A DNA stretch of 64,000 nucleotides, taken from Stegostoma tigrinum (Eukaryota). Made by a program: the position numbers and the translations under genes. The stretch spans positions 1,612,001 through 1,676,000 of the forward strand of contig NC_081394.1 of the NCBI RefSeq assembly GCF_030684315.1. The letters run 5' to 3'. The notes under the pieces were generated by a model, which did not search any database, was not told the DNA's origin, and worked only from the letters and a program-made list of their open reading frames with translations. Shown in pieces: positions 129-45,414 of this stretch (positions within the stretch are counted from its first letter, which is position 1; every line of letters starts with the position of its first letter).

Positions 129-216
129 AAAGCTCATTTGGACTCATAATTGGAATTTGCATGGCACCGCTGGCCTTCATAATCACAATGGTTTTAGTGA
201 TTGTGTGTTACAGAAG
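129..216 (+). CDS. Gene A transmembrane exon (type-I receptor; upstream exons lie outside the window)
   Basis: Acceptor ttctccgtcacag and donor AG|gtaagg; phase 1 to 2. Translates (x)SSFGLIIGICMAPLAFIITMVLVIVCYR(R), a ~22-aa hydrophobic helix followed by basic residues. Confidence 0.85.
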
Positions 217-286
217 GTAAGGACTGTTAGATTACACTCTCAAATATAACACAGCGAAACATGCCAAAAAGCTTCTGTCAAATCTG

Positions 287-530
287 GGTTAGACATCGTT
301 CAGAGCTCAGTGCACAGTCCCAGTCTCCATATCCTTCAATTAGACCCACACTTGGAGCACTGTGCACAGTTCCAGTCTCCGTATTCCTCAGTTAGACCCA
401 CACTTGGAGCACTGTGCACAGTTCCTGTCTCTGTATCCCTCAGATAGACCCACACTCGCAGCACCGTGCACAGTTCCAGTCTCCGTATCCCTCAGTTAGA
501 CCCACACTCGGAGCACTGTGCACTGTCTGG
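287..530 (+). repeat. 52-bp minisatellite derived from the CR1 ORF2 'LVRPHLEYCVQFWSP' segment
   Basis: About 4.5 copies of gttagacccacacttggagcactgtgcacagttccagtctccgtatccctca (starts at 391, 443, 495). Resembles gttagaccgcacttggaatactgcgtccagttc in the CR1 at 31721. Confidence 0.8.
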
Positions 531-1371
531 TCTTGTAAAATAGATACAAGTTCATTTGAGAAGTTTGATCACCCATTGGCTGAAATGATCCCAGAATTGA
601 GAGGTTCTAACAGTTTAAAGAGAGTGAATGCACTGAGGCTGTTTCCTCCTGGAGAGAGGAAGCTGAGGGGTGAACTGATAGAGGATTTTAAAATTCTGAA
701 AGGGGTTTCAATTGGGGAATGGTAGAGAAGATGGAAGGGGGAGACCAAAACAAGGAGACATTGAAAGAAGATAGTCCCACATAAATCTAGTGGGGAATAC
801 AGAAGAAACGTCATCACCCGGACAGTGGGCAATAATTGTGGAATTTGATCCCACAAGGGGCTGGTGGGTGAAGAATGTGGGACTGACTCGCACAGGGAGT
901 AAGAAAGAATGTGGGACTGACTCCCTTCGGGAGGTGGGAAGTGCGGGACTGGCTCCCACAGCGGGTTGTGGGGGCAGGGGGGTGGTTGGGTGGGAATTGA
1001 GAGACTCACTCCCACAGGGAATATATGTGGAGAAATGTACAACTCACTTCCACAGAAAGTGGCAGGGAGGAATGTAGGGCCTACTCCAACAGAGAGTAGT
1101 CGAGGTGAATCGTGTCGATCTATTGAAGGGTGGAAAGCTGGATAAACACATGGGACAGAGGGAGGTGAAGAGTACGGTGTGAAGAAGATGATGTGCAGTG
1201 AAATACCAGTAGCGGGGTGATGTGTTGAATGGTCAGTGCCTGAAGCTTATATTGTGGAGCTGTGTGATGGATGGTAGTATTTGGCTATGCCCCTGATCCC
1301 AGGGCTGTGGTATTGACCTCGGGAGCTGTGAACCTTCTTGAAATGTAATTATCTGTGTTCTGTCCTCTCAG

Positions 1372-1456
1372 GAAACAGAATACGTGTGATTGTAGCAGCC
1401 AACAACGCACTGAAGGAACAAACACTGCACACAGTGTGGTCATGAAACATATCCAG
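1372..1456 (+). CDS. Gene A juxtamembrane cytoplasmic exon (tail A, exon 1)
   Basis: Acceptor ttctgtcctctcag, donor CAG|gtttgt; 85 nt, phase 2 to 0, matching the TM exon and the 2471 exon. Translates (R)KQNTCDCSSQQRTEGTNTAHSVVMKHIQ. Confidence 0.7.
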
Positions 1457-1574
1457 GTTTGTGTGGAAACTGCAGGAAATCCAACACAGGGGAGCGCTGA
1501 GTCCACTCAGCCCCTCTTGGCGGCTACCCCATTCCACACAATTGCTGCCCTCACATTCAGCAGTTCAGAGGGCA

Positions 1575-1890
1575 ATCCCTCAGCACTGACCCTCCAACAC
1601 TGCAGCACTACTTCATCACTGACCCTCCTTCAGTGAGGCACTCCCTCAACACTGACCCTCCAACAGTGTGGCATTCCCTCAGTACTGACCCTCCAACAGT
1701 GCGTCACTCCCTCAGCACTGCCCCTCTGCCAGTGCGGCGCTCCATCAGCATTGACCCTCCAACAGTACGGCACTTCCTCAACATTGACTCTCCAATAGTG
1801 TGGCACCCACTCCTCAGCACTAACCCTCTGACAGTGCGGCACTCCCTTAATACTGACCGTCCAGCAGTGCTGCATTCCTTCAGCACTGAA
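1575..1890 (+). repeat. 32-bp minisatellite (cactccctcagcactgaccctccgacagtgcgg type)
   Basis: Tandem copies are directly visible; the same family recurs at six more sites in the window. Confidence 0.9.
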
Positions 1891-2470
1891 AGTGATTCAG
1901 TGATATTTACAGAGACACAAAGAGGTCGACTTATTAAGGGAGTTATTTTGAGAGAGAGGCTGCTCAGTAGAGAGAGATAGAAAGAGAAAGTGACGTCCAG
2001 AGAGAGAGAGAAATACAGAGAAAAACACAATTAAAGGCAGGTTAATGGAGAACCAAAGAGATGGAAAGAAACTTGAATGTAGTTATATGTATTTCTATTA
2101 CAGAGTGGGAGAGTGGCACAGAGCCAGAGAGAGAATGATACAGAGAGCGATACACAAATAAAGGGAGATAAAGAGACAGTTATAAAGCCAGTTATAAAGA
2201 CATTTATACAGAGGAGTGAGAGTAGAGTTAGACAAAGAGATACAGAGATAGAGATACCCAGAGAAAGAGAACTAGAGTTACATGAAGAGAGGGAGAGAAG
2301 TTGACAGGGAGAGTGAGGGAGATGTGGAAAGAGAGATAAACTGGATAAATTGACCCATACTGTCAGCTGAAGGTGTTTGGTGTTGCATTGCATTGCTGTG
2401 ACATGTTGAGCAGGGTAAGGCGCTATCTAAATGCAAGACGCTGAGCAGTGATGTCGGCTGTTCCCTGCAG

Positions 2471-2629
2471 GTGAAGGAGAAGACGGTCTATGAAAATATG
2501 GTGATGACCGAGTGCACGGACTCTCAGAGACACTCCGCACCAGACGGATGTGTGGAGTATGCGACCATTAACTTTGCGAGCAGCTCCCAGATGCCGGCGG
2601 GGCAGAAGCAAACAGGAGCGGCGTGGTAA
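2471..2629 (+). CDS. Gene A terminal cytoplasmic exon, copy 1 (TVYENM + ITIM VEYATI)
   Basis: Acceptor ttccctgcag, phase 0. Translates VKEKTVYENMVMTECTDSQRHSAPDGCVEYATINFASSSQMPAGQKQTGAAW*. Confidence 0.8.
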   Translation: MKEKTVYENMVMTECTDSQRHSAPDGCVEYATINFASSSQMPAGQKQTGAAW

Positions 2630-3762
2630 TGTCTGACAGGGCTGGAGCCTCGCGGTAACCGCGGGATCACGTAGTGCCAGACAATAAGCCCAGCCTGGGC
2701 CGAGGGGTTGGTGCTAACTGGGTTGCTTGTCAGGGGGATAGTACTGTCTTGGAGGGCTGAATGGACTCTTTCTGTACTGTAAAGATTTTCCATGGTGGTT
2801 GGTACACTGGCCTTTCTCAACAGAGTAACATCAAACAGGGCAGCACAGGATCAACACAGGAAGGATGTTCCCAATGACCTTGGAGGTGGGTGACTCTGGA
2901 ACAAGGGCGTCACAGTCAAGAGGAGACGGGGTACGACTGAGATGAGGAGAAATGTCTTCACCCGGAGAGTGGGGAATCTCTGGAATTCTCTGCCACAGAA
3001 GGTGGTTGAGGACAAAACAATGAAGAAGGAGTTTTAGATCTAGATCTTAGGGATAAAGGGATGAAGGGGAATGGGAGAGAAAGTGGGAACAGGGGACTGA
3101 ATTGGATCAACAACCATGATCCTATTGAATAGCTTGAACCGCTGAATGGCCTCCACCTGCCCCTATATTCTATGTTCTTACCACAGGAGGAAGGAGGTGA
3201 TGCTGAACTTGTCCAAGACCATGGCTCAGCCTCGGCTGGAGGGTTATATCCAGTTCTGGGCCCTTGCTCTTCAGGAAGGATGTGAAGCCTTTAGAGAGGA
3301 TGTGGAAAAGATTCAGTAGAAGAGTCCCAGGGATGAGGGGCTTCAGTGACATGGAGAGATCGGAGAGACTGGGACTATCTTCCTCGGAGAGGAGATATCT
3401 CCAAGAGCGAGATTTATCAAGGGATTCAAAACCATGCGGGAATCTGGACAGAGCAGAGAGGGAGCACCTGTACCTATGGAGGGATCGGGGGTGGATAAGG
3501 AATCAGATGAATACGGATTGGAGAGAATCAGGAAAAGAGGAGATGGAGACACGAGGAGAGATGGTTCCACAAAGTGAGTGGTTTCGGTTTGGAATGTATT
3601 GTCTGAGAGTGTGGGGGAGGCAGGTTCACTCGAGTGGTTCAGGTCTGGAATGTACTGCCCAAGAGTGTTCGGGAGGCAGGGTCACTCAAGGATTCTGAGA
3701 GGAAATTGGATCATTATTGGAAGAGGAACAGTGGTCAGTCAGAAAGCTTCAGTCTGGGAAGA

Positions 3763-3922
3763 TAAAGTGTGGAGCTGGATGAACACAGCAGGCCAAGCAG
3801 CATCATAGGAGCACAAACACAAGGATCTTATGCTCCTAAGATGCTGCTTGGCCTGCTGTGTTCATCCAGCTCCACACTTTGTTCTCTTGGATTCTCCAGC
3901 ACTGGCAGTTCCCATTATCTCT
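3763..3922. mobile_element. Short fold-back insertion made of two inverted PLE pLTR 3' ends, 16-bp TSD
   Basis: TSD cttcagtctgggaaga at 3747-3762 and 3923-3938. Arms aaagtgtggagctggatgaacacagcaggccaagcagcatc and its reverse complement; same sequence as the pLTR at 21039-21170. Confidence 0.85.
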
Positions 3923-4298
3923 CTTCAGTCTGGGAAGAGCCAGGTTGATTCTGCAGAGCGCCAAGACAGAGCTGAGGCCTGGATGGTCTTTGTCTGTCTG
4001 GCAGTTAGCCCTGATTCTCAATTCAGCTTCATCCTAAACTGAGACCTCATTCTGTACATCAGCATGAGCTGAGTCCCTCTCTGCACTTGCCTCAGTTTGA
4101 TTCCAAGCACCTAGTCTTCACCCTCGTGTCAGGGGATTTACTTGTCTGAGCCCACTAATTAATGCCTGTCCCTTGTTGACCCTTCAGGAGGTGGGGGTGG
4201 GCTGCAATCATGCACCGCCGCAGTCCATGTGCTTAACCCACAATGTCCTTAGGGAGGGACTTCCAGGATTTTCACACAGAGAAACCGAAGGAACGGGG

Positions 4299-5574
4299 AT
4301 ATAGAACATAGAACATAGAACATAGAACAGTACAGCACAGAACAGGCCCTTCAGCCCACAATGTTGTGCCGACCATTGATCCTCATGGATGCACCCTCAA
4401 ATTTCTGTGACCATATGCATGTCCAGCAGTCTCTTAAATGACCCCAATGACCTTGCTTCCACAACTGCTGCTGGCAACGCATTCCATGCTCTCACAACTC
4501 TCTGCGTAAAGAACCTGCCTCTGACATCCCCTCTATACTTTCCACCAACCAGCTTAAAACTATGACCCCTCGTGCTAGCCATTTCTGCCCTGGGAAATAG
4601 TCTCTGGCTATCGACTCTATCTATGCCTCTCATTATCTTGTATACCTCAATTAGGTCCCCTCTCCTCCTCCTTTTCTCCAATGAAAAGAGACCGAGCTCA
4701 GTCAACCTCTCTTCATAAGATAAGCCCTCCAGTCCAGGCAGCATCCTGGTAAACCTCCTCTGAACCCTCTCCAAAGCATCCACATCTTTCCTATAATAGG
4801 GCGCCCAGAACTGGACGCAGTATTCCAAGTGCGGTCTAACCAAAGTTTTATAGAGCTGCAACAAGATCTCACGACTCTTAAACTCAATCCCCCTGTTAAT
4901 GAAAGCCAAAACACCATATGCTTTCTTAACAACCCTGTCCACTTGGGTGGCCATTTTAAGGGATCTATGTATCTGCACACCAAGATCCCTCTGTTCCTCC
5001 ACTCTGCCAAGAATCCTATCCTTAATCCTGTACTCAGCTTTCAAATTCGACCTTCCAAAATGCATCACCTCGCATTTATCCAGGTTGAACTCCATCTGCC
5101 ACCTCTCAGCCCATCTCTGCATCCTGTCAATGTCCCGCTGCAGCCTACAACAGCCCTCTACACTGTCAACGACACCTCCGACCTTTGTGTCGTCTGCAAA
5201 CTTGCTGACCCATCCTTCAATTCCCTCGTCCAAGTCATTAATAAAAATTACAAACAGTAGAGGCCCAAGGACAGAGCCCTGTGGAACCCCACTCACCACT
5301 GACTTCCAGGCAGAATATTTTCCTTCTACTACCACTCGCTGTCTTCTGTTGGCCAGCCAATTCTGTATCCAAGCAGCTAAGTTCCCCTGTATCCCATTCC
5401 TCCTGACCTTCTGAATGAGCCTTCCATGGGGAACCTTATCAAATGCCTTACTGAAGTCCATATACACCACATCCACAGCTTGACCCTCATCAACCTTACT
5501 AGTCACATCCTCAAAAAACTCGATAAGGTTTGTAAGGCATGACCTACCCCTCACAAAGCCGTGTTGACTGTATT
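4299..5574 (-). mobile_element. Young 5'-truncated CR1/L3 LINE (intact 385-aa RT ORF 4397-5554)
   Basis: Motifs YMDFSKAFDKV, GVPQGSVLGP, KFADD, LVRPHLEYC; (GAACATA)n tail. Absent at the equivalent position of duplication unit 2. Confidence 0.95.
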
Positions 5575-7169
5575 AAAAGACTATATTTCCCAAATCAGGA
5601 TGGGGAGTGTCTCCGAGGAGAGCTTGCTGGGGATTGTGTTCTCACGTATCTGCTTCTAGATGGAAGTGGCCGTGGGTTTGGAAGGTGCTGCCTGAGGAGC
5701 CTTGGTGAGTTTCTGCAGTGCATCTTGTAGATGGTACACACTGCTGCCACTGAGCGTGGTTGGTTGAGTGAATGGTTGATGAAGGTGGTGCTTATCAATG
5801 AGAAGGTGGGGACCAGAAATCAGGCGGAGGAGATCTGAAAAGAGAAGGAAGTTGGACGTGATATTTTTCAAAAATCTCTCATGGGATGTGGGCTTCACTG
5901 ACAAGTGCCCCATCCCTAATTACCCCTCATTAAGTATCACATTCAGCCATTTGAGAGGGCAGTTAAACATGAACCATATTGGCCAGGAGTTACGTGCAGC
6001 CCAGAACCATTGAGGATGGTAGATTTCCCTCCCTGAGGTGAGACCACAGCTGGTGTATAGTGTACAGTTGTGAAGACAGCAGTGAATAAAGCACGCAGTG
6101 CCCTCGGGTTTATTCACAGGGGCACAGAGTACAGGAGCAGGGGGGTGATGGTGAACTTGTTCAAGAGCCTTGTTACTCCTCAGCTAGAGTATTGTGTCCA
6201 GTTGTGGGCCCCACATTATCAGGAAGATGGGAACGTGTTAGAGAGACAGAGAGAGAGAGTGTGGAAGGGATTTACAGGAACGGCCCCAGGGATGAGAAGG
6301 CTCTGTGCTGAGAATAGGTTGAAGCAGCTGGGGGCGGCTCCCCCTCAGGGAGGAGAAGGCTGAGGGACAGGGAGATTCAATCGGTGGGGGGGGGACTCAA
6401 ACCTGTGAGCAGGGGCTGGACAGAGTCGATCGGGAGAAGTTGTTCCCGCTGGGAAAAGGGACAAGAATGAGATGGGGGGGGGGAAGCGTAGATTTAAAGT
6501 GATGTGCAAACGGAGCGAGGGGGTTGTGAGGGGAAACACCGTGTTCCCCGCTCCCCCCCACCCCACAGTGAGTAGTTAGGGGGTGGAAATGTTTGTGGGG
6601 AGGTGGGCAGGTTCAACTGGAGCATCAGGGAGGGGCATTGGATGGGGATTGGGATAGAAATGGGGGGGCAGGGAGATGGGGAGGTGAGGGAGGAGATTGG
6701 GGGGGAGATTAGGATAGAAATGGGGGGGAACGGAGCTGGGGGGTGGGGAAAGGAGGAGATGGGCACCCAGGAATGCTGCTCATTTGAAGAGCTGGCAAAG
6801 GGATAATGGCTCGACTGGCCTCCTGTCATGTAACACTTCAGTGACTCCAAGCGACATTCCTGAAACAGATGAGTTTAAATGGATCACCATTTCAGTTCAA
6901 TGAGGGACTTCAATGAACGATCCCTCATTCCCCAACACGGCATTTCAATCAGGGAGTGATTACAGTAATATTAATTAATCTGTTTGAAGCTGATTGAAGG
7001 AGGGAGTGGTGATGTTGGTGGTGGGTGGTGTTGGGATACTGAGGGGATGTGGGGTTGGAATTTGTCCCAGACTTCTCAGACCATCACTGGAATGAGAAAT
7101 CGGGTGAGATTTCCAGTTTGTATTTTCTGACCGGCCAATATCTGCAGAGACTGGGGTAGGCTTAGGGTT

Positions 7170-7386
7170 ATGAATGTCTGTGTGTGTCTGTGTGTGCAAA
7201 TGTGTTTCTGTGTGTGTGGGAGTCTGTGTCTGTTGATATGTGAGTGTATCTGAGTGTGTGTGAGTATCGCTGAATGTGTGTGGTATGTCTGTGTGTGCGT
7301 GTCTTTGAGTGCCTGTGTGCGTGTTTGTGTGTCATTATATGTGTGTCGGTATATGTGTGTTGGCTTGATTGGTTTTGCTCTGTGTG

Positions 7387-7432
<46 letters not shown>
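7170..7432 (+). repeat. (GT)n-rich microsatellite
   Basis: Degenerate then near-perfect TG run at 7381-7431. Confidence 0.9.
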
Positions 7433-7525
7433 GGTGGGGGGGAGGTTAGAGGGTAAATAGGAGGAGAGCTGCCCATGATATTTATTGTACTTTCCAGCTC
7501 ACACTGTGCTTTCTGATATTCACAG

Positions 7526-7610
7526 GGGGAAAGGGAAGAAAGTTCTAAGAACAAGTTCTGACAACGATCCCATAGTTGTTTACAGCTTGATAAAGAAGGC
7601 ATCATCTCAG
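7526..7610 (+). CDS. Candidate alternative juxtamembrane exon of gene A with an ITIM (VVYSLI)
   Basis: Acceptor ctttctgatattcacag, donor CAG|gtatgg; 85 nt, phase 2 to 0. Translates (R)GKGKKVLRTSSDNDPIVVYSLIKKASSQ. The frame also stays open to a stop at 7766 if the donor is not used. Confidence 0.55.
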
Positions 7611-7887
7611 GTATGGCGGCCCTCATCCCCAAGAGACTGGTGGGACCAAGTTCATGGAGGCTGGGTGAGGATACTCGCTGGCTGGGTTCAATCCCGGGGA
7701 CAGAGATACCCAGAGCACAGACAAGGCAGTAGCTCTGAGAAGCCCCAGATCGTCCTATCAGAATAACAGCGCGAGGTGTCTGCGACAGGCTTGTGATGTG
7801 GATCAACAGAAAACACCCGTCACAGTGAGAGAGACATTGGTTCAAATGCCCATCCAACCCTGTGCCACAGTGGCAAATTCGCCATCG

Positions 7888-8112
7888 CAGAGGGTCAGTG
7901 CTGAGGGAGTGCCGCACTGTTGGAGGGTCAGTGCTGAGGGAGTGCCGCACTGTTGGAGGGTCAGTGCTGAGGGAGCGGGCATTGTCAGAGGGTCAGTACT
8001 GAGGGGGAGCCGCACTGTCAGAGGTTCAGTGCTTAGGGAGTGCTGCACTGTTGGAGGGTCAGTACCGAGGGAGAGCCGTATTGTCAGAGGGTCAGTGCTG
8101 AGGGAGCACTGC
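7888..8112 (-). repeat. 32-bp minisatellite (reverse orientation)
   Basis: gagggtcagtgctgagggagtgccgcactgtt units. Confidence 0.9.
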
Positions 8113-8399
8113 GCTCTCCCCTGCTTCCAGCACACACCTCCCACAATAGGGCAAGTTTCTGTTCTGACGGTTACAGGGAACAAGTCTCCTTTTTCAGTCA
8201 CTCAATCATGTTGACACAATGGAGCCCAATGGCCTGCACTGCAAGGGCACATTTTGAAATGTGCGGGAAAGGTGCAAGCCAATGAGAAATATCAACTTCC
8301 TCTCAACGTTCCCTCATTTTCTGTCGCTCTTCCAGATGTAAAACTAACCCCTCCCCCTCAATAGATTCTGGGTCCTGATCATCACCACTTCAAGATTCC

Positions 8400-8885
8400 T
8401 TACCTTTGTAACCCGTGCTAATCCCTACACCCCTCCCTATCTCTGTAACATCCTCCAGTCCCTACACCCCTCCCTATCTCTGTAACCTCTTCCAGCCCCT
8501 ACACCCCCTCCCTATCTCTGTAACCTGCTCCAGCCCCTGCACCCCCTCCCTATCTCTGTAACCTGCTCCAGCCCCTACACCCCCTCCCTATCTCTGTAAC
8601 CTCCTCCAGCCCCTACAACCCCTTCCTATCTATGTAACCTGCTCCAGCCCTTACACCCCACCCAGCCTCCGTAATCTCTGCCAGCCCCTACACCCTCCCC
8701 ATCTCTGTAATCTCCTCTAGCCCGTACATCCCTCCCTATCTCTGTCAACTGCTCCAAACCTACACCCTTCTATATCACTGTAACCTCCCCAGTCCCTGCA
8801 CCCTCCTTATGTCTATACCCTGTTCTAGCCCCTATACTCCTCCCTGTTTCTGAAACATCCTCCAGCCCTACACCCTCACTATCTT
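8400..8885 (+). repeat. ~35-bp C-rich minisatellite (ccctccctatctctgtaacctcctccagcccctacac)
   Basis: Tandem copies visible; also at 16360-16865 and 39650-39990. Confidence 0.9.
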
Positions 8886-9852
8886 GGTAGTTCTGACCTG
8901 CACGGTCCTCCACCATTTCACCCTCAGCCTGCTGCACGTTTGTCATGTTGTATGGCCCTCAGTAAGACGTTTGACAAGGCTTTGTATGGTAGACTGATTA
9001 ACAAAGTTAGATCACATGAAATACAGGGAGAACTAGCCATTTGTACCCAAAACTGGCTCAAAGTTAAGCGACAGAGGCTTGTTGCTTTTCAGACTGGAGG
9101 CCTGTGACCAGTGGTGTGCCATCATGGTTGGTGCTGGGTTCACTGCTTTTTGTTATTTCTATCAATGATTTGGATTGGAATGTAGGGGAGGGGGCATAGT
9201 CAGTAAGTGTGCACATGACACCAATATTGGAGGTGTAGTGAACAGCAACGGTTACCTCAGAGTAAAACGAGACCTTGATCAGATGAGGAGTGGCAGTTGG
9301 AGTTTAATGGAATTGGAAGTAGAGAGAGATTCAATTATACACAGATATCCAGAAGAGAGAGACAGAGGGAGCGAGAGAAATAGAGTGAAAAGGAAGAGAT
9401 GAAGAGAGATTTGAAAAATGACAGATATAGAGAGAGAAACAGAGAGAGAAAGCAACAGAGAGACAGTGGTAGAAACCCAGAGCATTAGAAACAGAGTTAC
9501 ACAAATAGGGGGAGATAAAAAGATAGACAGGAAATAGAGAGATAAAGCAATAGAAACAGAGAGATTGAGACAGGACATAAGGCAAGAGATACAGTTGTAG
9601 AGACACACAGAGGCAGAGAGAGGTAGAGTGATGTACAGAAAGAGGGAGAGAAGTTGTCAGGGAGAGTGAGGGAGATGTGGAAAGAGAGATGAACTGGATA
9701 AACTGATCCATACTGTTAGCCGAAGTTGTCTGGTGTCGGACTGTGTTGCTGCGATATGTTGAGCTAGGCAAGGCACTATATAAATGCATGTTGCTGAGCA
9801 GTGATCTCGGCTGACCCTGCTGCTGCTGCCATTGTTGTTATGTTCCCTGCAG

Positions 9853-10017
9853 GTGAACGAGACGAACGTCTATGAAAATATGGTGATGACCGGGCGCACG
9901 GACTCTCAGGCGCACTCCCCGCCAGACGGATGTGTAGAGTATGCAACCATTAACTTTGTGAGCAGCTCCCAGACCCCAGGGGGGCAGAAGCCAAGTGGCT
10001 CGGTAATGTCTGACTGA
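9853..10017 (+). CDS. Gene A terminal cytoplasmic exon, copy 2 (NVYENM + ITIM VEYATI)
   Basis: Acceptor ttgttatgttccctgcag, phase 0. Translates VNETNVYENMVMTGRTDSQAHSPPDGCVEYATINFVSSSQTPGGQKPSGSVMSD*. Confidence 0.75.
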   Translation: MNETNVYENMVMTGRTDSQAHSPPDGCVEYATINFVSSSQTPGGQKPSGSVMSD

Positions 10018-11854
10018 GGGCTGGAACTGCGCGTTAACAGCCAGACCACGTAACCCCAGAGAATAAGCCCACCCTAGGCCGAGGGATTGGTGTTGACTGG
10101 GTTGCCCTATCAGGGAGTAAGATGGACATGGTGGGCTGAATGGTGTCCTTTGTACTGTATAGACTTTCCATGGTGGTTGGCACACTGACCTTTCTCAACA
10201 GAGTAACATTCAACAGGACAGCACAGGGTCAATACAGGATGGATGTTCCCAATGACCTAGGGGTGTGAGGGGGTGGTCTCTGAAAGTAGGGGGTCACAGT
10301 CAAAAGGAGACAGGGTAGGACTGAGATGAGGAGAAATGTCTTCGCCCAGAGAGTGGGGAGCCTCTGGAATTCTCTGCCCCAGACAAAACACTGACAAAGG
10401 AGTTAAACCTAGTTCTTACAAAAAAAGCGGGATGGGAGAGAAAGTGGGAACAGGGGACTGAATTGGATCAACAACCATGATCCTATTGAATAGCTTGAAC
10501 CGCTGAATGTCCACCACCTACTCCTTTAGTCTATGTTTCTACCACAGCAGGAAGGAGGTGATGCTGAGCTTGTCCAAGACACTGGCTCAGCCTTGGCTGG
10601 AGGGGTATGTCCAGTTCTGGGCCCTTGCTTTTTAGGAAGGATGTGAAGCATTTAGAGGGGACGTGGAAAATTTTCAGGAGAATGGTCCCAGGGATGAGGG
10701 GCTTCAGTGACATGAAGAGATCGGAGATACTGGGAGTGTCCTCCTCCAAGAGGAGAAATCTCCAAGAGGGAGATTTCATTGAGGAGTTCAAAACCATGAG
10801 GGAATCTGGACAGAGGAGAGAGTGTGCGCCTGTACCCAAGTGGGGTGGATCAGGAATCAGATGAACATGAATTGGAGAGAATCAGAAAAAGAGGAGATGG
10901 AGACACGAGGAGAGACGGTTTCACACAGTGAGTGGTTACGGTCTGGAATTTACTGCCTGTGAGTGTGGGAGAGGCAGGTTCACACAAAGATTCTGAGAGG
11001 AAATGGAGGGAATTCCAGCATTTTGACTCAGCAACCCTGAAAAAATTGCAGTATGTTCCCAAGTCAGGATGGTGAATGGCTCAGTGGGGAACCTACAGGG
11101 GATGGTGTTCCCATGTACCTGCTGCCATTGTCCTTCCCGATGGAAGTGATTGTGTGTTTGGAATGTGTTGTCTAAGGAGCCTTGGTGAGTTTCTGCAGAG
11201 CATCTTGTAGATAGTACACTCTGCTGCTACTGAGCATCGGTGGTGGAGGGAGTGGATGATGAAGGTGCTGCTTATCAATGAGAAGACAGGGTCCAGAAAT
11301 CAGCCAGAGGAGGTGTGAAAAGAGAAGGAAGTTGGACGTGATAGTTTTTAAAAACCTTACATGGGATGTGGACTTCACTGACAAGACCAACATTTGTTGC
11401 CCCATCCCTAATTACCCTTCATTAAGTGTCACATTCAGCTATCTCAAAGGGCAGTTAAATGTCAACCATATTGGTCAGGAGTCATGTGTACCCCAGAACC
11501 ATTGAGGACGGTAGCTTTTCCTCCCTGAGATGAGACTGCAGCGGGCTTAAGTGTTTGGCTGTGGAGAGAGCAGTGAATAAAGCACACAGTGCCCTCGGCT
11601 TTATTTACAGAGGCATGGAGTACAAGACCGGGGGGGGGGGGGGGGGGGAAGATGGTGAACTTGTACAAGTGTTACACCTCAGCTGCAGTATTGTGTCCAG
11701 GTGTGTGCCCCACACTATAAGGAAGACGGGAATGCATTGAAGAGAGAGTGTGTGCAGGACGATTTACAAGAATGGTTCTAGGGATGAGAATCCTCTGTGT
11801 TGAGGATGTATTGAAGCAGTTGGGGACTGTTCCCCTCAGAGAGGAGAAGGCTGA

Positions 11855-14560
11855 GTCATAGCGTCAGAGTCATAGATTAATACAGCATGGAAGCAGGCCC
11901 TTGGGTCCAAACTAGTCCATGTTAACCATGCTGCCCACTCAGCTAGTTCCAATTGCCCGCATTTGGTCCCTATCCTCTCGAAGCCCTTCTCGTCTATGCT
12001 TCCTTCCAAATGATTTTTAAATGTTGCTATTGTACCTGCCTCAACCACTTTCACCTGCAGCCCATTCCATTTCCGCACCACTCTTTCAGTGTGAAGAAGT
12101 TGCCCCACAGGTCCTCCTTAAAATTTTCCCCTCTCGCCTTAAACCAATGCCCTCTTGTTTTCAATGCCCCATCCCTGGTAAAAAGGCTATAATACATTCA
12201 TACAAACAATGCCCATCAGAACTTTTAAACCTCAATAAGGTCACCCGTCATTCTCCTACATTCCAACGAATGAAGTCCTATCCTGGCCAACCTCTCACTA
12301 GTCAGACCGACGAGAGCTGGCAACATCCTTGTAAATCTTCTTTGCACACTTCCCAGTTTAACTAAGCTTTTCCTAAAACAGGGTGACTAAAACTGTACAC
12401 AATACTCCAATTGCAGCCTCACCAACGACTTATGTAACTGTAACATAACATCCCAACTCTAAATCTCAATGCCTCGATCGATGAAGACCGACGTGCTAAA
12501 TGCCTTCTTCACCACCCTGTCAACCTGTGACGCCACTTTCAACAAACTATCTAGTGGTACTCCTAGGTCCCTGTGTTCCACATCACTTCCCAGCACCTTA
12601 CCATTTACTGTTTAAGTTGGTTAGACTTTCCAAACTTTCCACACTTATCAGTATTGAATAGCATTTGCCAATCCTCAGCCCACTTCCCATCGGATCAAGA
12701 TCCCTCTGTAATTTTTGAAAGCCTTCCTCGCTACTAGTGGTACCTCCTAATTTTGTATCATGCGCAAACTTATTAACCATGCCTTGGACATTTGCATCCA
12801 GATCATTCATGTAAGTAACAAATAACAAAGGTCCCAGCACTGACCCCTGTGGCACACTACTAGCCACAGGCCTCCAATCTGAGAAACAACCTTCAACCAT
12901 CACCCTCTGCTTCCTACCATCGAGCCAATTTTGAATCTGATTAGTTAGCTTTCCCTGATCTCATGCAACCTAACTTTCATGACAAGCCTACCAAGTGGGA
13001 CCTTGTCAAAGACCTTACTAAAGTCCATTGAGATGACGTCCACATTCCTATCCTCATCCGTCCTCTCGGTTACTTCTTCAAAAACTGCAGAAGTGGCACG
13101 GTGGCTCAGTGGTTCGCACTGCTGCCTCACAGCACCAGGGACCTGGGTTCAATCCCACCCCGAGGCAACTGTCTGTATAGAGTTTGCACATTCTTCCGGT
13201 GTCTGTGTGGGTTTTCTCTGGGTACTCTGGTTTCCTCCCACAGTCCAAAGATGTGCACACTAGGTGGATTGGCCATGCTAAATTGCCCGTAGTGTTTGGT
13301 GATGTGTAGCTTATGGGGGTGGGGGTGGGGCTGGGTGGGATGTTTCAAGGGTCGGTGTGGGCTTGACAGGCTGAAGGGCCTGTTTCCACACTGTAGGGAT
13401 TCCATGAATCTTTGAAAAAACGCTTGAAGATTTGTCAGATATGACTTCCAGTGCAAAAATCCACGCTGGCTATCCCTAATCAGACCTTGGCTGTCCAAAT
13501 GTTAGTTGAACCTGTCCCTCAGCATCCTCTCCAATAACTTGCCTACTACTCGTCAGGCTCATGAGCCTGTAGTTTCTTGGTTTGTCTTTTGCTACCTTTT
13601 TTAAACAACGAACAATATTAGTCATCCTCCAGTCTTTCGGAACTTCCCCAGTGGCTAAAGATGAAGCAAATATTTCTGCAAATTTCTCTGTAAATACTGA
13701 GGAGAAATATTCATTAAAATTCTCCCCCATTTCCTGTGGTTCCGCACTTACATGGCCATGCGTATCTTAAGGGGACCTATTCTCTCCATCGCCGCTCTTT
13801 TAACATAGCCTTAGAACCTCTTGAGATTATCTTTATCCTTATCTGCCAGATCCAGCTCATACCCTCTTTCTGCTTTTCTGATTTCCCTCTTAAGTGTGCT
13901 CCTACACTTTTTATAGTCACCTAGGGATTCACTTGAGCCTGATAGTTTAAACCCAATGTATGCCTTCTTCTTTTTCCTGACCAGACCTTCAATATCCCTC
14001 ATCTGCCAGCTTTTTCCTTTCCCCTAACAGGGACAACACTGTCCCTGGACTCTTGATATCACATTTTTGAAAGCTTCCCATTTACCAATCATTCCTTTTC
14101 CTTCAAACAGACTCACCCAATCGATGGCTGCTAGATCCTGCCTAATAGCCCCCGAATTGGTCCTGCCCCAGTTTAGCACTTTAACCTGTGGACCTGTCCT
14201 ATCTTTTTCCATAATAACTGTGCTAAAACTAAGAGAGTTATGGTCATTGGACCCAAAGTGCTCTCTGACTGACACTTCAGACACTCGCCTGACCTCATTT
14301 CTGAAGAAGAGCTCCAACGTTGAACCCTCCTGAATCGGGCCCTCTACATATTGATTTCGATACTTTCTTGGACACGTTTGACAAATTTCACCCGGACCGG
14401 ACCTTTTACACTCTGGCTGGCCCAGTCAATACAGGGGACATTAAAATCTCCAACCAATACTACTCTATTACTCCTACAGGTATATGCAATTTCTCTACAC
14501 ATCTGCTCCTCTAGTACCCGCTGGCTATCTGGGAGTCTATAATACATTTAACAACACCTT
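11855..14560 (-). mobile_element. Degenerate CR1 LINE (endonuclease to RT fragments) with a nested HE1 SINE
   Basis: Fragments YYRLPDSQR...VLVGDFN, DHNSLSF, SVPQGSVLGP, MDFSKVFDKV; many stops. Confidence 0.9.
13094..13408 (+). mobile_element. HE1-type tRNA-derived V-SINE
   Basis: A box gtggctcagtggtt, B box gggttcaatccc, V-domain tgtatagagtttgcacattct, 3' end sharing the CR1-like tgaagggcctgtttccacactgtagggattc. Confidence 0.85.
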
Positions 14561-15507
14561 GACAGCAGGTTTTCTCTGACCAGCTCCACAGTCATGGTGA
14601 TGTCTCCCAAAATTCCGATGTGATGACTCTCAGCTGAGAGAAGGAGACTTGATTGACATTTTCAAGCCCTTGGGTGGCAGCTGGACAGAATTGAAAGGGA
14701 GAAGCTGTTCCCACTGGGAAAAGGAACAAATTCGAGAGAGGGGTGAAGATTTAAAGTGACATACAAATGGAGCGAGGGGTATGTGAGGGTAAACACCATG
14801 TTCCCCCTTCAGCGAATAGTTAGGGGGTGGGATATACTGCCTGGAAATGTCGGTTGGGGCGGGAGGCGCAAGTTCAATTGAAGCATTGGAAAGCGGCATT
14901 GAGTGGGGATTGGGATAGAAATGAGGGGCAGAGAGATTGGGGGAGAAGGCAGGAGATGGGAACTCTGGAATGCTGCTTATTTGAAGAGCTGACACAGGGA
15001 CAATGGCTTGACTGGCCTCCTTCTGTGATGTAACACATCAGTGACTTCAAGCAACATTTCTGAAACAGATGGGATTTTACGTGTCACTGTTACGGAGATT
15101 AATTCATTCACCAACAAGGCATTTCAAACAGGGACTGATTACAGTAATATTAATCAATTTGTTTGATGCTGAGTGAAGGAAAGACTTCGTGATGCTGAGC
15201 GGGGTAAGGAGATTGTGGGGGATGGAATTTGACCTGACGTTTCCCAGGCCACAACCAGAATGAGAGGCTCGGTGAGGTTTCGAGTTCGTACCTTCTGAAT
15301 GGTTATGAGTGTTATGGAGTGTGTGTGTGTGTGTGTGTGTGGGACTGTGAGTATTTGAACCTGTGAGTCTGTACCTGCGAGTGTGTGTGTGTCTGTCCCT
15401 ATAGGTTGTCAATTAGTGTGTGTGTGTGTGTTGGGGGGAGACAGGAAGGAGTGCAGCGTGCATTTATCACCCCTTCCAGCTCACACTGTGCTTTCTGATA
15501 TTCACAG

Positions 15508-15604
15508 GGGGAAAGGGAAGAAGCCTCTAAGAGAGAATTCTGACAGCGATCTCACAGTTGTTGACAGCTTGGTAAAGAAAGCACCATCTCTGTCCAAGAA
15601 TTGA
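15508..15604 (+). CDS. Paralog of the 7526 exon, tyrosine-less and terminal
   Basis: Identical acceptor region. Translates (R)GKGKKPLRENSDSDLTVVDSLVKKAPSLSKN*, with TAC>GAC at 15563-15565. Confidence 0.4.
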
Positions 15605-15879
15605 AAACCCTCATCCCCAAGTGGCCTGAAGAAGCGGGGAGGTGGAGGCTGGGTCAGGACAGGCACTGCTGGGTTCAATCCCAGTGATAGAGAGACCCAG
15701 AGGACAGACACGGCATTAGCTCTGAGAGCCCTCAGACTGTCCCATTGGAATAACAGCGCCAAACACATCCAAAACAGGATAGTGATCCAGTTCAACAGAA
15801 AACACTCCGCATAACCAGAGGGACATTGGTTCAAATCCCCAGCCAACCTTATACCACAGTTGCAACTTCACCATCCCAG

Positions 15880-16125
15880 AGCTTCAGTATCGATTGAGTG
15901 CCGCATTGTCGGAGGGTCAATGCTGAGGGAGTGCCACACTGTTGGAGAGTCAGTACCGAGTGAGTGCCACACTGTCCGAGGGTCAGCACTGAGCGAGGTG
16001 CTGCACTGTCAGAGGGTCAGTGCAGAGGTAGTGCTGCACTGTCGCAGGGTCAGTGCTGAGGGAGCGCCGCACTGTCGGAGGGTCAGTGCTGAGGGAGCGC
16101 CGCACTGTCGGAGGGAATGCTGAGC
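15880..16125 (-). repeat. 32-bp minisatellite
   Basis: Tandem units; paralog of 7888-8112. Confidence 0.9.
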
Positions 16126-16359
16126 TGACTGGGGAAGGCCATTCTCCCACTTTGGTGTGCTGCAAGAACACATCCTCCCATGGTGCTGTAAGTTTTGAAA
16201 TGTGTGGGGAAGGTGCAAGGCTGATGACAATTTACACTTTTGTCTGAACTTTCCCTCATTTCCCGTCATTGTTCCCAGAGTAGAACTCAGCCCTCCCCCA
16301 CCATAGATTCTGGGTCCTAAATGATCACCAACTCAAGTTTTCTTTTCTCTGCATCCTGT

Positions 16360-16865
16360 ACTATCCCTAACCCATCCCTATCTGTGTAACCTGCTCCAGA
16401 TCTTACACTCCTCCCCGTCTCTGTAACCTCCTCCAGCCCCAACGCCCCTCCCTATCTCTGTAACTTCTTCAAGCCCCTATCCTCCTCCTTATATCTTTCA
16501 CCTCCTCCAGCCCCTAGTCCCCTCCCTATCTCTATAAACTATCCCAGTCGCTACACCCCTCCCTTACTGTGGAACCTCCTCCAGCCCCTTCACAGCTCCC
16601 TATCTTTGTAACCTCCTCCAGTCCCTACCCTACTGCTTGTCTCCATAAACTCCTCCAGTCCCTAAACACCCTGCTGATCTTTGTAACTCCCTCCAGTTCC
16701 TATACCCTTCACAATCTCTGTAACTCCCCGTGGTCCTTACATCCCTCTCTATCTCTATAAACTCTTTCAATCCTTATACCACTCCTATCTCTGTAACTTC
16801 CTCTAGTCCCTATTCCCTTCCCTATCTCTGTAACTCACTGCAGTCCTTGTAGCCGCTCCTTATCT
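16360..16865 (+). repeat. ~35-bp C-rich minisatellite
   Basis: Paralog of 8400-8885. Confidence 0.85.
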
Positions 16866-17097: not shown

Positions 17098-17580
17098 TCA
17101 GCACTGATCCTGCACAGTGTGGCACTCCCTCAGCACTAACCCTGCGGCAGTGCAGCGCTCCCACAGCACTGAGTCTGCGACAGTGCGGCACTACCTCAGC
17201 ACTGACCCTCCAACAATGCGGCGTTCCCTCAGTGCTGATCCTCTGACAGTGCGGAACTCCTTCAGCACTGACCCTCTGACAATGCGGTGATTGCTCAGCA
17301 CTGACCCTGCAACAATGTGGTGCTCCCTCAGCACTGACCCTCCGACAGTGTGGCACTCCCTCAGCACTGACCCTCCGACAGTGCAGCGCTCCCTCAGCAC
17401 TGACCCTCCGACAGTGTGGCGCTCCCTCAGCAACGACCCTCTGACAGTATGACACTCCCTCAGCACTGACCCTCCAACAGTGCAGCGCTCCCTCAGAACT
17501 GACCCTCTGACAGTATGACACTCCTTCAGCACTGACCCTCCGACAGTGTGGCACCCCATCAGCACTGATGCTCTGACATA
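17098..17580 (+). repeat. 32-bp minisatellite (~15 copies)
   Basis: Tandem ctccctcagcactgaccctccgacagtgtggca units. Confidence 0.9.
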
Positions 17581-18267
17581 TTGGAATAATGCTTGCTTGC
17601 CTGTGTAAAAACAGGACCCGCTCACAGAAGCTTTCAATGCAAATAAGATGTTGACACAGCCTTCTGATTTGTTAAACAGTGTCAGAAAGAGTTTGTGAGA
17701 GAGAAACTTCCAGAGACTGCAGACAGAAGGCTGTGATCTCTCCCTCCATTCCTCTGGAGGAAAAACAATACAATCTAAAAATTAAAAGTATTCTAAGACT
17801 AGAAAAGACCAGCTGATCAACCACTGAATCGAAGATTGACCGTCACCAATGGACAACAATGTCACCCTTGCTAAAATCTAAAGGACTGTGAGAAAATAAC
17901 TGTCCAACTTATTGCCCATTCTTTCGATGCTCAGAATTTGGTTTTTTCCGGTCAATGTTATTTTTCCACCTGTTGTAAATGTGTTCAACCGTTTCTTTCT
18001 GCCTCTGATAATTATGAACGAGTCTATGCATACCTCAAGCTTTTAAACAATTATAGTTTCATAGAAGTAAATTACAAATCCTTTGTTTTCTCTTGTTAAA
18101 GTTACTGGTGTTAGAATGTAGCATGATATTCTGTTTGTGATGAAACCGTGTGAATTCAGATTTTCTGCAGTTGCAGCCAACCAGACAAGTCTCAGTGTGA
18201 TTCTGGGCAGGTTGTGACAGTTTATGGAACCATGGGGCACAATTGTGATGGTGCATGTTTAGATATT

Positions 18268-18558
18268 TAGATTCCTTACAGTGTGGAAACAGGCCCTTTG
18301 GCCCAACAAGTCCACGTTGCCCCTTGAAGCATCCCACCCAGACCCATCTCCCTATAACCCACACACCCCTGAACACTACAGGCAATTTTGCATGGCCGAT
18401 CCACCTAGCCTGCACATCTTTGGACTGTGGGAGGAAACCCACGCAGACACGGGGAGAATGTTCAAACTGCACACAGACAGTCACCCGAGGCTGGAATCGA
18501 ACCTGGGTCCCTGGAGCTGTGAGGCTGCAGTGTGAACCACTGAGCCACTGTGCCGCCC
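18268..18558 (-). mobile_element. HE1-type SINE
   Basis: Reverse complement of the 13094 element. Confidence 0.85.
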
Positions 18559-19253
18559 CAATGGAGTTGTGACCACGCTGTATATCGAGCAGTTCCAAAT
18601 TGGCATCTGATTGGTTGGCCACGCAATACAGGCACCTCCTGTGGGCATGAAAGCCTGAGGAGGTCCTCAAACTCAGAGCTTCATGGCAACACCTCCACTG
18701 CAACTCTCCCTAAAAGGGAGTGGGCACTGAGCATGTTGTTCATCAACACACTCCCAATCTCCCCACTATGAGCACTGCGGGGGGCAACAATAGGACAACA
18801 ACAAAGATTCTAACAGATTATAAAAGATTATAATATCGTAAAAGTTACCCCCTGCCCTTCTGAAGTCAGCTCATAGGGACCATACATCAGACACCATTTG
18901 ACACCCAGTCACATTGGGATCTCTATTGACAAGCAAAACCTTTGGTCAGAATCCTCACTTTGCAGGATCACAGAAACATTCACTCAGCCACTTCTTGCAT
19001 CTTCACAACATTGTAAGGGGATGGTAACATTGTCACAGACTTTGAGGAGCAGAGGGCTGCTCTCTCGTTTGAGGGTGAGGTGACTGGGGATGAGTTTAAC
19101 CCGTGGGCCATCACACCTCAAGGGAGGTGGAGAAGATGGGAACTTCACTCAGTTGGGGTCATGAGGACCGTCCATCCCACAATGGTCCTGATAGAAAACA
19201 GCAGGATAGTTTTACTTCCAGTGTCTGAGAAAACCAAAACAATGACCAGAGGG

Positions 19254-20250
19254 TGTCACGACTGGTGGGAGGATGTCATTACAGCGTGTTTACAGGGGAA
19301 ATTTCCATGAGAAGAAATATAGTGATTGCAACAAGGTCCACCAGGTGGGCCTTGTAGAATATGAGTTCCCTAGTTGGGGATGTTAATCTGGTCCAATCAG
19401 GGAGCCCTGGCTGAGAGATAGAAACAGGAGAGTCCAAGTTTCTGCTTACTCTGAGAGCTGGCTCTGAGGGAGCTGGGTCAGTGTCAAGGATTCTCCACGT
19501 GTAAATAAAAGGGGTCTTGGTGACAGGGTACCAGCCTCTGTGGAGTTATTCTAGTGGCATCATGAGAAAAGCACACTCCTGAAGAAATTCACTCTCAACT
19601 TTGAGATGGGTTAAGCATTTCTGGCATCATGCTGTAATTTGGGAATAACTCAATTGATCCTGCCTTCAGAGGCCAGTTTTGGAAAGAATGCATTTTTTCC
19701 CAGCTAATGACATTGGGGCAAATGCAAAGGAATGTGTAATTCTCCTGACAGTTTGGGAACCTGCAGCTTTTTTTGGTTATTAGGAAACTGACATTTCCTG
19801 AGACTCAGATACTAAAATCTTTCAAGACTTGATGGATTTGGTCAAGGGGCATTACAACTGCATGAATCCTCTAATTCTGAGATGCTGTCGGTTTTATTCA
19901 GCAGTTCAAGAACCAGGGGATTCCGTATCAGGATTTTTGGTGAGGTTAAGATGACTGGCCGAGACCCTTAATGAGATGCTGAGAGACCGTTTGATCTGTG
20001 GGGTGAATGACATAACCATGCAAAAGCACCTGCGAGTAGAATCCCACCTGGACTTCAAACAGGCTCAACAAGTGGCTTTGTCATTAGGAAATGCAGCAAT
20101 TGGGGAATATGAGTTACAGGGTATTCAATGGAAGTGAACACCCTCGCCAGGCCAACTGAGATTCGGGAACACCACTTGAGTGAAGGCAATTGCACAGCCT
20201 CACTCAGGACATATCCTTCACAGAGGAATTCTAGATCAGTCCACAGCAAA
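19254..20250 (+). mobile_element. Degenerate Gypsy-like LTR retrotransposon 5' part (LTR, PBS-like site, gag remnant)
   Basis: TG start (tgtcacgac), CCAAT box, AATAAA, LTR end ttattcta followed by gtggcatc (PBS-like); remnant LNEMLRDRLICGVND..MQKHL. Confidence 0.6.
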
Positions 20251-38995: not shown

Positions 38996-39395
38996 GCATG
39001 GTGAATAATGAGAGGACACCAGAAATAAATAGAGGGAGAAGTGTGGGATTGGGTGACCGGTGGGAGAGATTCTGAAGTGGTTGCAGGTTGGGGGATATTC
39101 TGATTGGTTTGTGGGAAGGGTGGACATGGAATTAGGGTGGACGTGGAGGGATTTTGAAGCTGGTGAAGTCAATAATAAGGCCATTTGACTTTAATCTTCC
39201 AAGGTGAAATATCAGGTGTTGTTGGAAGTTAAGACCGCTTATCATCTCATAGAGAGTCAAAGTGGTCAGTGAGGACATTGTCTAAAAGTAGTTCTGATCT
39301 CTCAAGACCTGTTGGACAAAAGGTGGGGTCTCATTAACTCCTTTCTCTTTCAGAGATTGAGCAGGAGATGCTGATGAAATATCTGGGGACTGGGA

Positions 39396-39435
39396 ATGAT
39401 TGGGAAATTTTACTTCCTGCTGTCACTTCTCCAAG
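39396..39435 (+). CDS. Siglec-like signal-peptide exon (exon starts at 39354 after ctttctctttcag, implying an upstream non-coding exon)
   Basis: Translates MIGKFYFLLSLLQ; donor G|gtaatg, phase 1; continues VRLAQEW in the V exon. Confidence 0.75.
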
Positions 39436-39649
39436 GTAATGTCATTGTCAGCACGGACAGGTTTATGGTTAATAGTGTTTGTAAAAGTTCATTCTTATTG
39501 AGTTCTGATTGGGAACCAAAACTCCAGTGAGTTAATATATACGCGCACACCACTTACCACTGACCAATTATGCTCTGTTCATTGATAGACAATGGGACTG
39601 GGTTGATAAAAGTAAAATCCAGCTCCTTTGATTATAATCTCCCTAATCA

Positions 39650-39990
39650 TGCAGCCCTAACCAATCTCCCTAATCTTGCAGCCCTAACTCCAAAGCCGTA
39701 ATCACCCCCAGCCCCTTTAGCCCTCCCATTCTCTCGAAACTGCTCCAGTCCCAATAGATCTTCCCACCTTCTCCAGCACCTACTCGCTTCCCTATTTCTG
39801 TAACCTCCTCCAGCCACTATACCTCTCCCTATCTCTATAACCTCCTCCAGCTCCATCAATCCTCCCTATCTCTGTAACCTCGTCCAGCCCTTATACCCCT
39901 CCCTAACTTTTCCAACCCTTCTGCTCTCTATAATATTCTCCAGGTCCTAAAATACCCATCCACCGCGATCTCAGTAATCTTGCTCAATTG
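39650..39990 (+). repeat. Degenerate ~35-bp C-rich minisatellite
   Basis: cctccctatctctgtaacctcctccagc units. Confidence 0.75.
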
Positions 39991-41389
39991 CCTGAGATCT
40001 CTGTGCTCCTCCATTTCCAGCCTCCTGCTGATCCCCTGATTCCCATTGCTCCCCCATGAGTGCCTGTGCTATTAGCTCATGGGGCCAGAAGCTCTGGAAT
40101 TTCTTTCCTTGAAACCTGAACATTCACATCAGGTTCAAACTGGGGAAGCTGAGTTAGGTTCAGTGTGAGCTCAGTATGACAGCAGCTCAACAGAGTTCAT
40201 AACAGAAAGTGAGTCCAGCCCTCTCACTTCCTGCCCCACCTCACCATCTCAGCAACTTTGATGAACTGAAATAACTGAAAGATAAAGAGAAGATAAAATA
40301 TGTAAAGGTGTCACTTTTACAGAATTTGTCTGTTTGCTGCTCATTTACTGTGAAGCTAAACCTCATAAAGTCATAGAAATGACCGGGTAGAGAAGGCCAT
40401 CCGGCCCATTGTGCTGACTGTGCTATCCTATTGGTCATCAGCTCCCACTCTGCAAGTATTTCTCTGATTCTCCTTTTGAAAGTTCCTGTTGAACCTGCTC
40501 CCACTGCCAGATCGCAACAACTCACTCTTGTCAAAAAAACAAATTCTCTTCCACTCAAATCTCTACCTCTCTGATTCTTTTCCTAATTCTCTGTGATTGA
40601 TCCTCCTGCCCCTAGAATCAGTATATGCTAATTGACTCAATGGAAAGAACTTGGTGATTGTGAACTCCTCAATTAAATCTCCTCTCAGTCCTTCCTTCTC
40701 CATCAAGTACAATCACAGCTTCTCCAATCTCTCACATTCAGTGAAGTCCCTCATCCCTGGAAATACTTTCTCATCAATCTTTTCAATGACCTCTCGAAAC
40801 CATTGCTCTCTCTAAACCCTTCACATTTTGGCTAAAATGCGGTACCCAAAGCTGGATACAATACTCCAGAGGGGGCTGCACGAGTGTTTTTGAAAGATCA
40901 CAATGATTCCTTTGACCTAACCTTCTACTTTCTGGCCTTCAAATTGGAGCTGTATTTGAACAGGAAACATTTTCCAGGGTATGGGGGAGAGACGGAAGGA
41001 TTGGACTATCTAGACAGGCATTTCAAAGAGCCAGCACAGAGAAGTTAGGTTGAATGGCCTCCTCTGGTGCTGTACAATTCAATTATTTAATTTCCTTATC
41101 ATTAACTTCTGCTGTAATGATGCAAATTGCAGAGGACGTGTTCCTCATCAGCTTTAAAGAGTGGGTTTTGCTTCAAACTTTAACCACACAGGCTGTGAAA
41201 CCACGTGTGAAAGTCATGGACTCAACCCAGAGGCTCCTCTGACACATGCAGAGCTCAGGCTAGAGACACTTTGCTCAAGTGTTTCACAGTGTCTGCTGGA
41301 GTATGGTCAAGGCTGATGCGTAGGGACCAGTCAGTCTCCAATGCTTCATTTCACTCAACATGAAAGGTTTTGGATCAGAAAACAGCCTT

Positions 41390-45397: not shown

Positions 45398-45414
45398 GTA
45401 AGTATCCTCTGAAA

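What the first reader, a model, noticed from the sequence alone, without database searches (positions are those of the whole stretch)
129..15604. One TM exon, a menu of cytoplasmic tails created by tandem duplication
Seen: the TM exon ends in phase 2. Three downstream exons start in phase 2 (1372, 7526, 15508) and two start in phase 0 (2471, 9853). No second TM or Ig exon is visible in the duplicated units. Possible tails: 1372+2471 (TVYENM, VEYATI); 1372+9853; 7526+9853 (VVYSLI, NVYENM, VEYATI, three tyrosines); 7526 read-through to 7766 (one ITIM); 15508 (no tyrosine). Inference: the signalling output of a single ectodomain could be tuned from strongly inhibitory to signalling-null by alternative 3' exon choice, instead of by paired genes.
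Basis: partly seen in the sequence, partly recalled or inferred. Interest (0 to 1): 0.7.

Follow-up and report, generated by a model that had tools for sequence, protein, structure and literature searches.

The report
Shark CD22-like tail, partly duplicated
These exons are the inner tail of a shark CD22-like immune receptor; they are likely joined one after another rather than picked from a menu, two of them were copied once (one copy is broken, the other could lengthen the tail), and likely activating partner genes with nearly identical outer parts lie next door.

Summary
The exons, phases and tyrosine motifs are real. The menu reading is mostly wrong. The gene is a shark CD22-like receptor. 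Only the B-C block is duplicated (about 18% diverged). C' (15508) has lost its tyrosine and donor and has a stop and a frameshift. B' keeps both motifs and could extend the tail, as NCBI's model and a bamboo shark model suggest. The duplicated exons are no better conserved than their flanks. Paired genes are not replaced here: short-tailed paralogues with a transmembrane arginine lie 67 kb and 172 kb upstream and 199 kb downstream; the nearest shares 98.9-100% identical Ig exons (membrane-proximal one 89%). What remains plausible is a nested set of tails with 2, 3 or 5 tyrosine motifs. No RNA was available. The more interesting by-product is a V-set-less, apparently paired CD22 derivative in carpet sharks.

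The parts
129..216 (+). Transmembrane exon (phase 1 to 2) of a CD22-like receptor, uncharged TM
1372..1456 (+). Tail exon A (85 nt, phase 2 to 0); the tyrosine motif kept in whale and epaulette sharks (TVYSV) reads TAHSV here
2471..2629 (+). Tail exon B (YENM, VEYATI); internal phase-2 donor at 2625/2626; read-through stop 2627-2629
7526..7766 (+). Tail exon C (VVYSLI); donor at 7610/7611 (phase 0); read-through frame open to stop 7764-7766 and 48/80 identical to the epaulette shark terminus
9853..10017 (+). Duplicate exon B' (YENM and VEYATI kept); net 5-nt deletion moves its donor (10002/10003) to phase 0; read-through stop 10015-10017
15508..15604 (+). Duplicate exon C', damaged: Tyr to Asp, donor lost, stop 15602-15604, later frameshift; acceptor intact
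2151..8884 (+). Tandem unit 1 (B..C), interrupted by a repeat insertion at 4309-5574
9498..16827 (+). Tandem unit 2 (B'..C'), interrupted by unaligned, repeat-rich sequence at about 11855-14680
17680..17736 (+). 18-codon tyrosine-free last exon of NCBI model P0001 (phase 0, ATTAAA at 17781); not homologous to ancestral exon D; unverified
18001..18087 (+). Possible decayed remnant of ancestral terminal exon D (weak)

Best explanation
These are the cytoplasmic exons of a CD22-like receptor, likely spliced in series (TM-A-B-C), followed by one tandem copy of the B-C block in which C' is broken and B' could be added as an in-frame extension. The ancestral shark tail is inferred to be TM-A-B-C-D. 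No intact D is found here, so the protein would end by reading through C (3 tyrosine motifs), by splicing C to B' (5 motifs), or at the stop overlapping the B donor (2 motifs). All three keep YENM and VEYATI, so they would grade an inhibitory signal (inferred SHP-1 recruitment at the ITIM-like motifs, Grb2 at YENM) rather than switch it off. The opposing signal is likely supplied by separate short-tailed genes with a transmembrane arginine. Shown: exon anatomy, phases, duplication, damage to C', paralogues, the order in database models. Inferred: actual splicing, expression and signalling.
For: Serial order in annotated relatives: Carcharodon 4 of 4 isoforms and Pristis 2 of 2 of this tail type are TM-A-B-C-D; Heterodontus X1 is the same and X2 skips C. 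The Carcharodon isoforms differ only by 1 residue at the C/D junction and 4 at the B/C junction, which suggests junction-level transcript support (inference; support not visible to me). Hemiscyllium P0005 is TM-A-B-C with read-through ending at the same position as here. Chiloscyllium P0084 is C-B'-C' in series. NCBI's model of this locus, P0001, is TM-A-B-C-B' plus a short last exon. Profiles built from three outgroup species rank the A, B and C exons of this window first in 464 kb (E 0.0036, 3.7e-11, 0.13). C' is damaged, and contigs of 4 of 4 DNA runs (at most 2 samples) show no difference from the window there. Mismatches: B/B' 18/138 and C/C' 14/78 against 764/4249 for the whole unit (Fisher p 0.14 and 1.0). 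dN/dS 0.49 for B/B' (p 0.21 against neutrality) and 1.08 for C/C'. Arg-TM paralogues at window -172090, -67556 and +199368; 8 of 9 hand-picked Ig exon pairs are 98.9-100% identical and the membrane-proximal pair 88.9%.
Against: No transcript evidence for this species' locus; all relatives are database gene models. The B donor is weak (5 of 9 matches to the consensus), and the partial whale shark model stops at B. A 49-nt run identical in C and C' spans the acceptor; it is the second longest of the unit, and runs of 45 nt or more cover only 2.8% of aligned columns. This could mean the C' acceptor is still used, although the longest run (78 nt) is non-exonic. No canonical polyadenylation hexamer lies close to the C or B' stops (next at 11576). 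The dN/dS tests use only 46 and 26 codons.
Confidence: 0.65

Rival explanations
1. One reading: the TM exon is spliced alternately to 1372, 7526 or 15508, and 1456 to 2471 or 9853, tuning one ectodomain from inhibitory to null.
For: All combinations are in frame; A+B and B+C are each 240 nt, so skipping them keeps the frame; the C/C' acceptor is identical over 49 nt; tail exon skipping is annotated in horn shark.
Against: 0 of 8 outgroup isoforms join TM to C; the TM donor and A acceptor are intact and adjacent; C' carries several independent lesions and dN/dS near 1; paired Arg-TM genes already exist.
Confidence: 0.1
2. The mRNA ends at the stop in exon B (two motifs); C, B' and C' are all leftovers after loss of D.
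For: Weak B donor; the whale shark model ends there; C/C' dN/dS 1.08.
Against: C keeps its ITIM-like motif, both splice sites and an open 79-codon frame that ends at the same place in three carpet shark genera, while C' lost the tyrosine, the donor and the frame; no canonical poly(A) hexamer follows B until 5240, inside a repeat insertion; the whale shark model is marked partial, on a 16-kb contig.
Confidence: 0.15
3. The whole gene is a decaying or silent CD22 copy.
For: V-set exon broken, one C2 exon frameshifted, Tyr to His in exon A, D not found.
Against: Signal exon, 14 C2 exons, TM, A, B and C are open with splice sites; B and B' are the only matches to B in the genome; models without a V-set domain also occur in Hemiscyllium and Chiloscyllium.
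Confidence: 0.1

Closest known systems
CD22 (Siglec-2) and the CD22-like genes annotated in sharks and rays (XP_041037097, XP_067874680, XP_051901442)
   Same: Signal peptide, C2-type Ig array, single TM, serial tail exons A, B, C with YSxV/I, YENM/V and YATI-type motifs. Human CD22 recruits Grb2 and SHP-1 at separate tyrosines (PMC13299070, passages read).
   Different: V-set exon broken; 14 intact C2 exons instead of six; terminal exon D not found; exon A tyrosine lost; B-C block duplicated.
Paired inhibitory/activating receptors (LILRB/LILRA; PIR-B/PIR-A; Siglec-5/14)
   Same: An ITIM-type gene beside short-tailed genes with a basic TM residue and near-identical ectodomains. LILRA tails are short and couple to FcR-gamma (PMC7237751, passages); a charged TM residue mediates this (PMC4016189, passage); ligand-binding exons become homogenised (PMC3210942, passages).
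   Different: Built from CD22-type C2 domains, with very long arrays (14 and 26 intact exons); ligand and adaptor binding untested.
Tail isoforms by alternative splicing, such as horse CEACAM1 paralogues (PMC5856374, abstract read)
   Same: Inhibitory motifs lost or kept by splicing after duplication.
   Different: Here the duplication is of two tail exons inside one gene, and no cDNA exists.

Membership tests
CD22-like receptor (descent) | Tail homologous to CD22-like tails with ITIM-like and YEN motifs | tested here: met
   Outgroup profiles hit A, B and C as best matches in 464 kb; relatives are named CD22-like by NCBI
CD22-like receptor (descent) | C2-type Ig array ending at a single TM exon | tested here: met
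   14 open exons at -40.6 to -3.7 kb; Pfam Ig_2/Ig_3 in P0001
CD22-like receptor (descent) | Terminal exon D with YEN and two distal tyrosine motifs | tested here: not met
   No intact D in 464 kb; not found genome-wide with one white shark query, no positive control; weak remnant at 18001-18087
Siglec (sialic-acid-binding lectin) | Intact N-terminal V-set domain with the essential arginine | tested here: not met
   V exon at -41.8 kb has an internal deletion, frameshift and stop; the intact copy lies about 260 kb upstream on the other strand; PF24518 is absent from P0001 and present in P0159 and P0161
Siglec (sialic-acid-binding lectin) | Sialic acid binding | not testable with these tools
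   needs a binding assay
Alternative 3' exon cassette (menu) | Duplicated exons mutually exclusive and each maintained by selection | tested here: not met
   Serial order in relatives; C' broken; exon divergence not below flank divergence (low power)
Alternative 3' exon cassette (menu) | Junction reads from TM to more than one acceptor | not testable with these tools
   no RNA holder listed
Paired receptor system | Linked short-tailed paralogue with a basic TM residue and a near-identical ectodomain | tested here: met
   same arrangement in Pristis models
Paired receptor system | Adaptor association and opposite signalling | not testable with these tools
   two zeta/gamma-family TM exons (PF11628) exist in the genome, but binding was not tested

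The most novel reading that the evidence does not exclude
Carpet sharks have rebuilt CD22 into a paired receptor family made only of C2 domains: one inhibitory gene that lost both its sialic-acid-binding V-set domain and its terminal exon, then regained tyrosines by repeating a B-C tail module (independently or concertedly in two shark lineages) to give nested tails of 2, 3 or 5 motifs, flanked by activating arginine-TM partners with homogenised ectodomains of up to 26 Ig domains.
Probability: 0.3. Interest if true: 0.62.

Novelty: new variant of a known kind. Interest (0 to 1): 0.33.

Why it matters
As proposed, the menu would be a modest twist on known tail isoforms, and it is not supported. 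What the locus does offer is a testable case of an inhibitory receptor changing its number of tyrosine motifs by exon-block duplication, and a candidate paired inhibitory/activating receptor system in cartilaginous fish derived from CD22. A 2014 survey reported no C2-only LRC-type receptors and no FcR-gamma chain in sharks (PMC4016189, section 13 read). These genes are not LRC homologues, but they would fill that role. Four searches pairing CD22 with shark terms and one that did not require a shark term listed no paper describing this locus; I saw listings and abstract starts only, and subscription journals are not covered.

Tried and rejected
RNA search: no RNA holder listed; the four runs found behave as DNA and gave no splice joints. 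A strict Ig regex found no real Ig exon; tblastn did. Searching with the C read-through frame returned only this locus's own model and missed the known epaulette shark match, so it has low power. The genome-wide search for exon D with one query was empty and uncontrolled. A tree of 8 B exons had no supported branch, so whether the bamboo shark duplication is shared or independent is open; pairwise identity (its two C copies 23/25, versus 14-17/25 to the copies here) leans to independent or concerted. The run-length expectation under independent sites was rejected as a test because long identical runs are overdispersed; that call also included one spurious repeat block and one overlapping block, removed. 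The 17680 exon was rejected as a D homologue (no tyrosine, no similarity). PMC10768021 matched only through CD223. PMC6818156 (passages) confirmed only the essential arginine and SHP-1 recruitment. Searches (listings only; no hits) added nothing on tail exon structure. No earlier scan findings were listed near this place. No supplements were read.

Full report
Observation. The window lies at G000:C53:1612001-1676000. Self-alignment shows one tandem unit, 2151-8884 against 9498-16827, holding B and C, with 764 mismatches in 4249 ungapped columns. TM and A have no DNA copy in -200 kb..+64 kb. B and C each have exactly two matches in the genome.

The gene. Upstream stretches hold a signal-peptide exon at -42.9 kb, a broken V-set exon at -41.8 kb and 14 open C2-type Ig exons from -40.6 to -3.7 kb, plus one frameshifted and several partial Ig exons. 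NCBI's model of the locus is P0001 (XP_059497258, labelled hemicentin-1-like, Stegostoma tigrinum). It begins at -108.8 kb and appears to fuse two genes (inference). Close relatives are labelled B-cell receptor CD22-like.

Exon order. Its stop overlaps a donor (GTG|GTAATG at 2625/2626) in phase 2, which fits the C acceptor. Database models use this link. Epaulette shark P0005 runs TM-A-B-C and reads through C to the same end as here (48 of 80 identical). White shark (4 isoforms), horn shark (2) and sawfish (2 of this tail type) give 8 isoforms: 7 are TM-A-B-C-D, 1 skips C and shifts frame in D, and 0 join TM to C. These came from the best 150 hits of one search and the cluster members of 10 of them, so the sample is small. 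A partial bamboo shark protein is C-B'-C' in series, and P0001 is TM-A-B-C-B' plus an 18-residue end. The partial whale shark model stops at B. All are gene models whose RNA support I could not see.

Exon D. Profiles from three outgroup species found A, B and C here as top hits but no intact D in 464 kb. The only D hit (E 5.1) is at 18001-18087. A frameshift-tolerant scan ranks it first of 928 one-kb bins, tied with its own inverted copy. It has two tyrosines at the spacing seen in D but no acceptor. I treat it as a possible remnant only.

Selection on the copies. C' has Tyr to Asp, a lost donor, a stop and a later frameshift; DNA contigs of 4 of 4 runs show no difference from the window there. 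B' keeps both motifs; a net 5-nt deletion shifts its donor to phase 0, out of frame with C'. dN/dS is 0.49 for B/B' (46 codons, p 0.21) and 1.08 for C/C' (26 codons). Exon mismatch rates do not differ from the unit as a whole (p 0.14 and 1.0). A value near 0.5 is what one constrained and one free copy would give (inference). The longest run (78 nt at 3071) is non-exonic, so conversion or rate variation can also explain it.

Paired genes. A different TM exon, with an arginine, a very short tail and no tyrosine, lies at window -172090, -67556 and +199368. The -67 kb copy ends a gene with its own signal exon and 26 open Ig exons. Of 9 exon pairs chosen by hand, 8 are 98.9-100% identical to those of the tail-bearing gene and the membrane-proximal pair is 88.9%. 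Bamboo and epaulette sharks have the same TM type. Sawfish models show an arginine-TM protein whose N-terminal ectodomain differs at 12 or more single positions from the long-tailed one (list cut at 12). The genome has two zeta/gamma-family TM exons. That such receptors activate through an adaptor is inferred from mammalian precedent. Some of the near-identical repeats could be assembly duplicates; this was not tested.

Mechanism. The most likely product is a CD22-derived inhibitory receptor without a V-set domain, with tail TM-A-B-C. It could end at B's stop (2 motifs), read through C (3 motifs) or add B' (5 motifs). These are nested, and all keep YENM and VEYATI. A tyrosine-free form needs a 15-kb skip from TM to C', or intron read-through after TM or A; nothing here supports selection for these. 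SHP-1 and Grb2 recruitment is inferred from human CD22.

Comparison and novelty. It works like CD22 at the tail and descends from shark CD22-like genes, but it fails the Siglec test (broken V exon; the intact copy is about 260 kb away on the other strand) and lacks D. Tail variation by splicing is known. I rate it a new variant of a known kind, interest 0.33. The searches named under Why it matters listed no description of this locus.

Noticed in passing
G000:C53, window -147.8 kb to -67.4 kb (L009-L017); also -172 kb and +199 kb: Gene with signal exon, broken V exon, 26 open C2 Ig exons and an arginine-containing TM with a very short tail; candidate activating partner. Two more copies of this TM exon nearby.
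   Followed up: partly
window -175 kb to -3.6 kb (L003-L020): Recent tandem expansion of four Ig exon types at 97-100% identity, with a segmental duplication offset by about 105 kb (up to 99.5% identical); one 200-N gap at -182.9 kb. Could be partly assembly duplication.
   Followed up: partly
P0001 (window -108.8 kb to 17.7 kb): The NCBI model runs from the upstream Ig array past the Arg-TM exon into this TM exon. Probably a fused model, but if real it would be a choice between an activating and an inhibitory TM in one transcript.
   Followed up: no
window 17098-19963: 93% identical inverted copy at window +202916-205780; contains NCBI's last exon (17680) and the D-like remnant.
   Followed up: partly
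window 39353-46630: Another Siglec-like gene: 5' exon at 39.4 kb, V-set exon 42862-43185 with a TGA stop, C2 exons at 45.1 and 46.3 kb.
   Followed up: no
window 46687-55642: Two inverted copies (about 92-96% identical) of a non-LTR retrotransposon, with frames resembling endonuclease and reverse transcriptase by eye.
   Followed up: no
window 2456 and 2472: Contigs of 3 of 4 DNA runs carry a 9-nt insertion upstream of the B acceptor and T>C at the second base of B; one run has three more differences in B.
   Followed up: no
G000:C53, window +85 kb to +124 kb and contig 6.2-7.2 Mb, 16.2-16.8 Mb: Many further Siglec-type V-set exons on this contig (19 or more matches); a tyrosine-motif terminal exon at window +109.3 kb probably belongs to one of them.
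   Followed up: no
P0007, G000:C53:1352137 (-): Intact CD22-type V-set domain in a model that continues into SRCR domains; real chimera or fused model.
   Followed up: no
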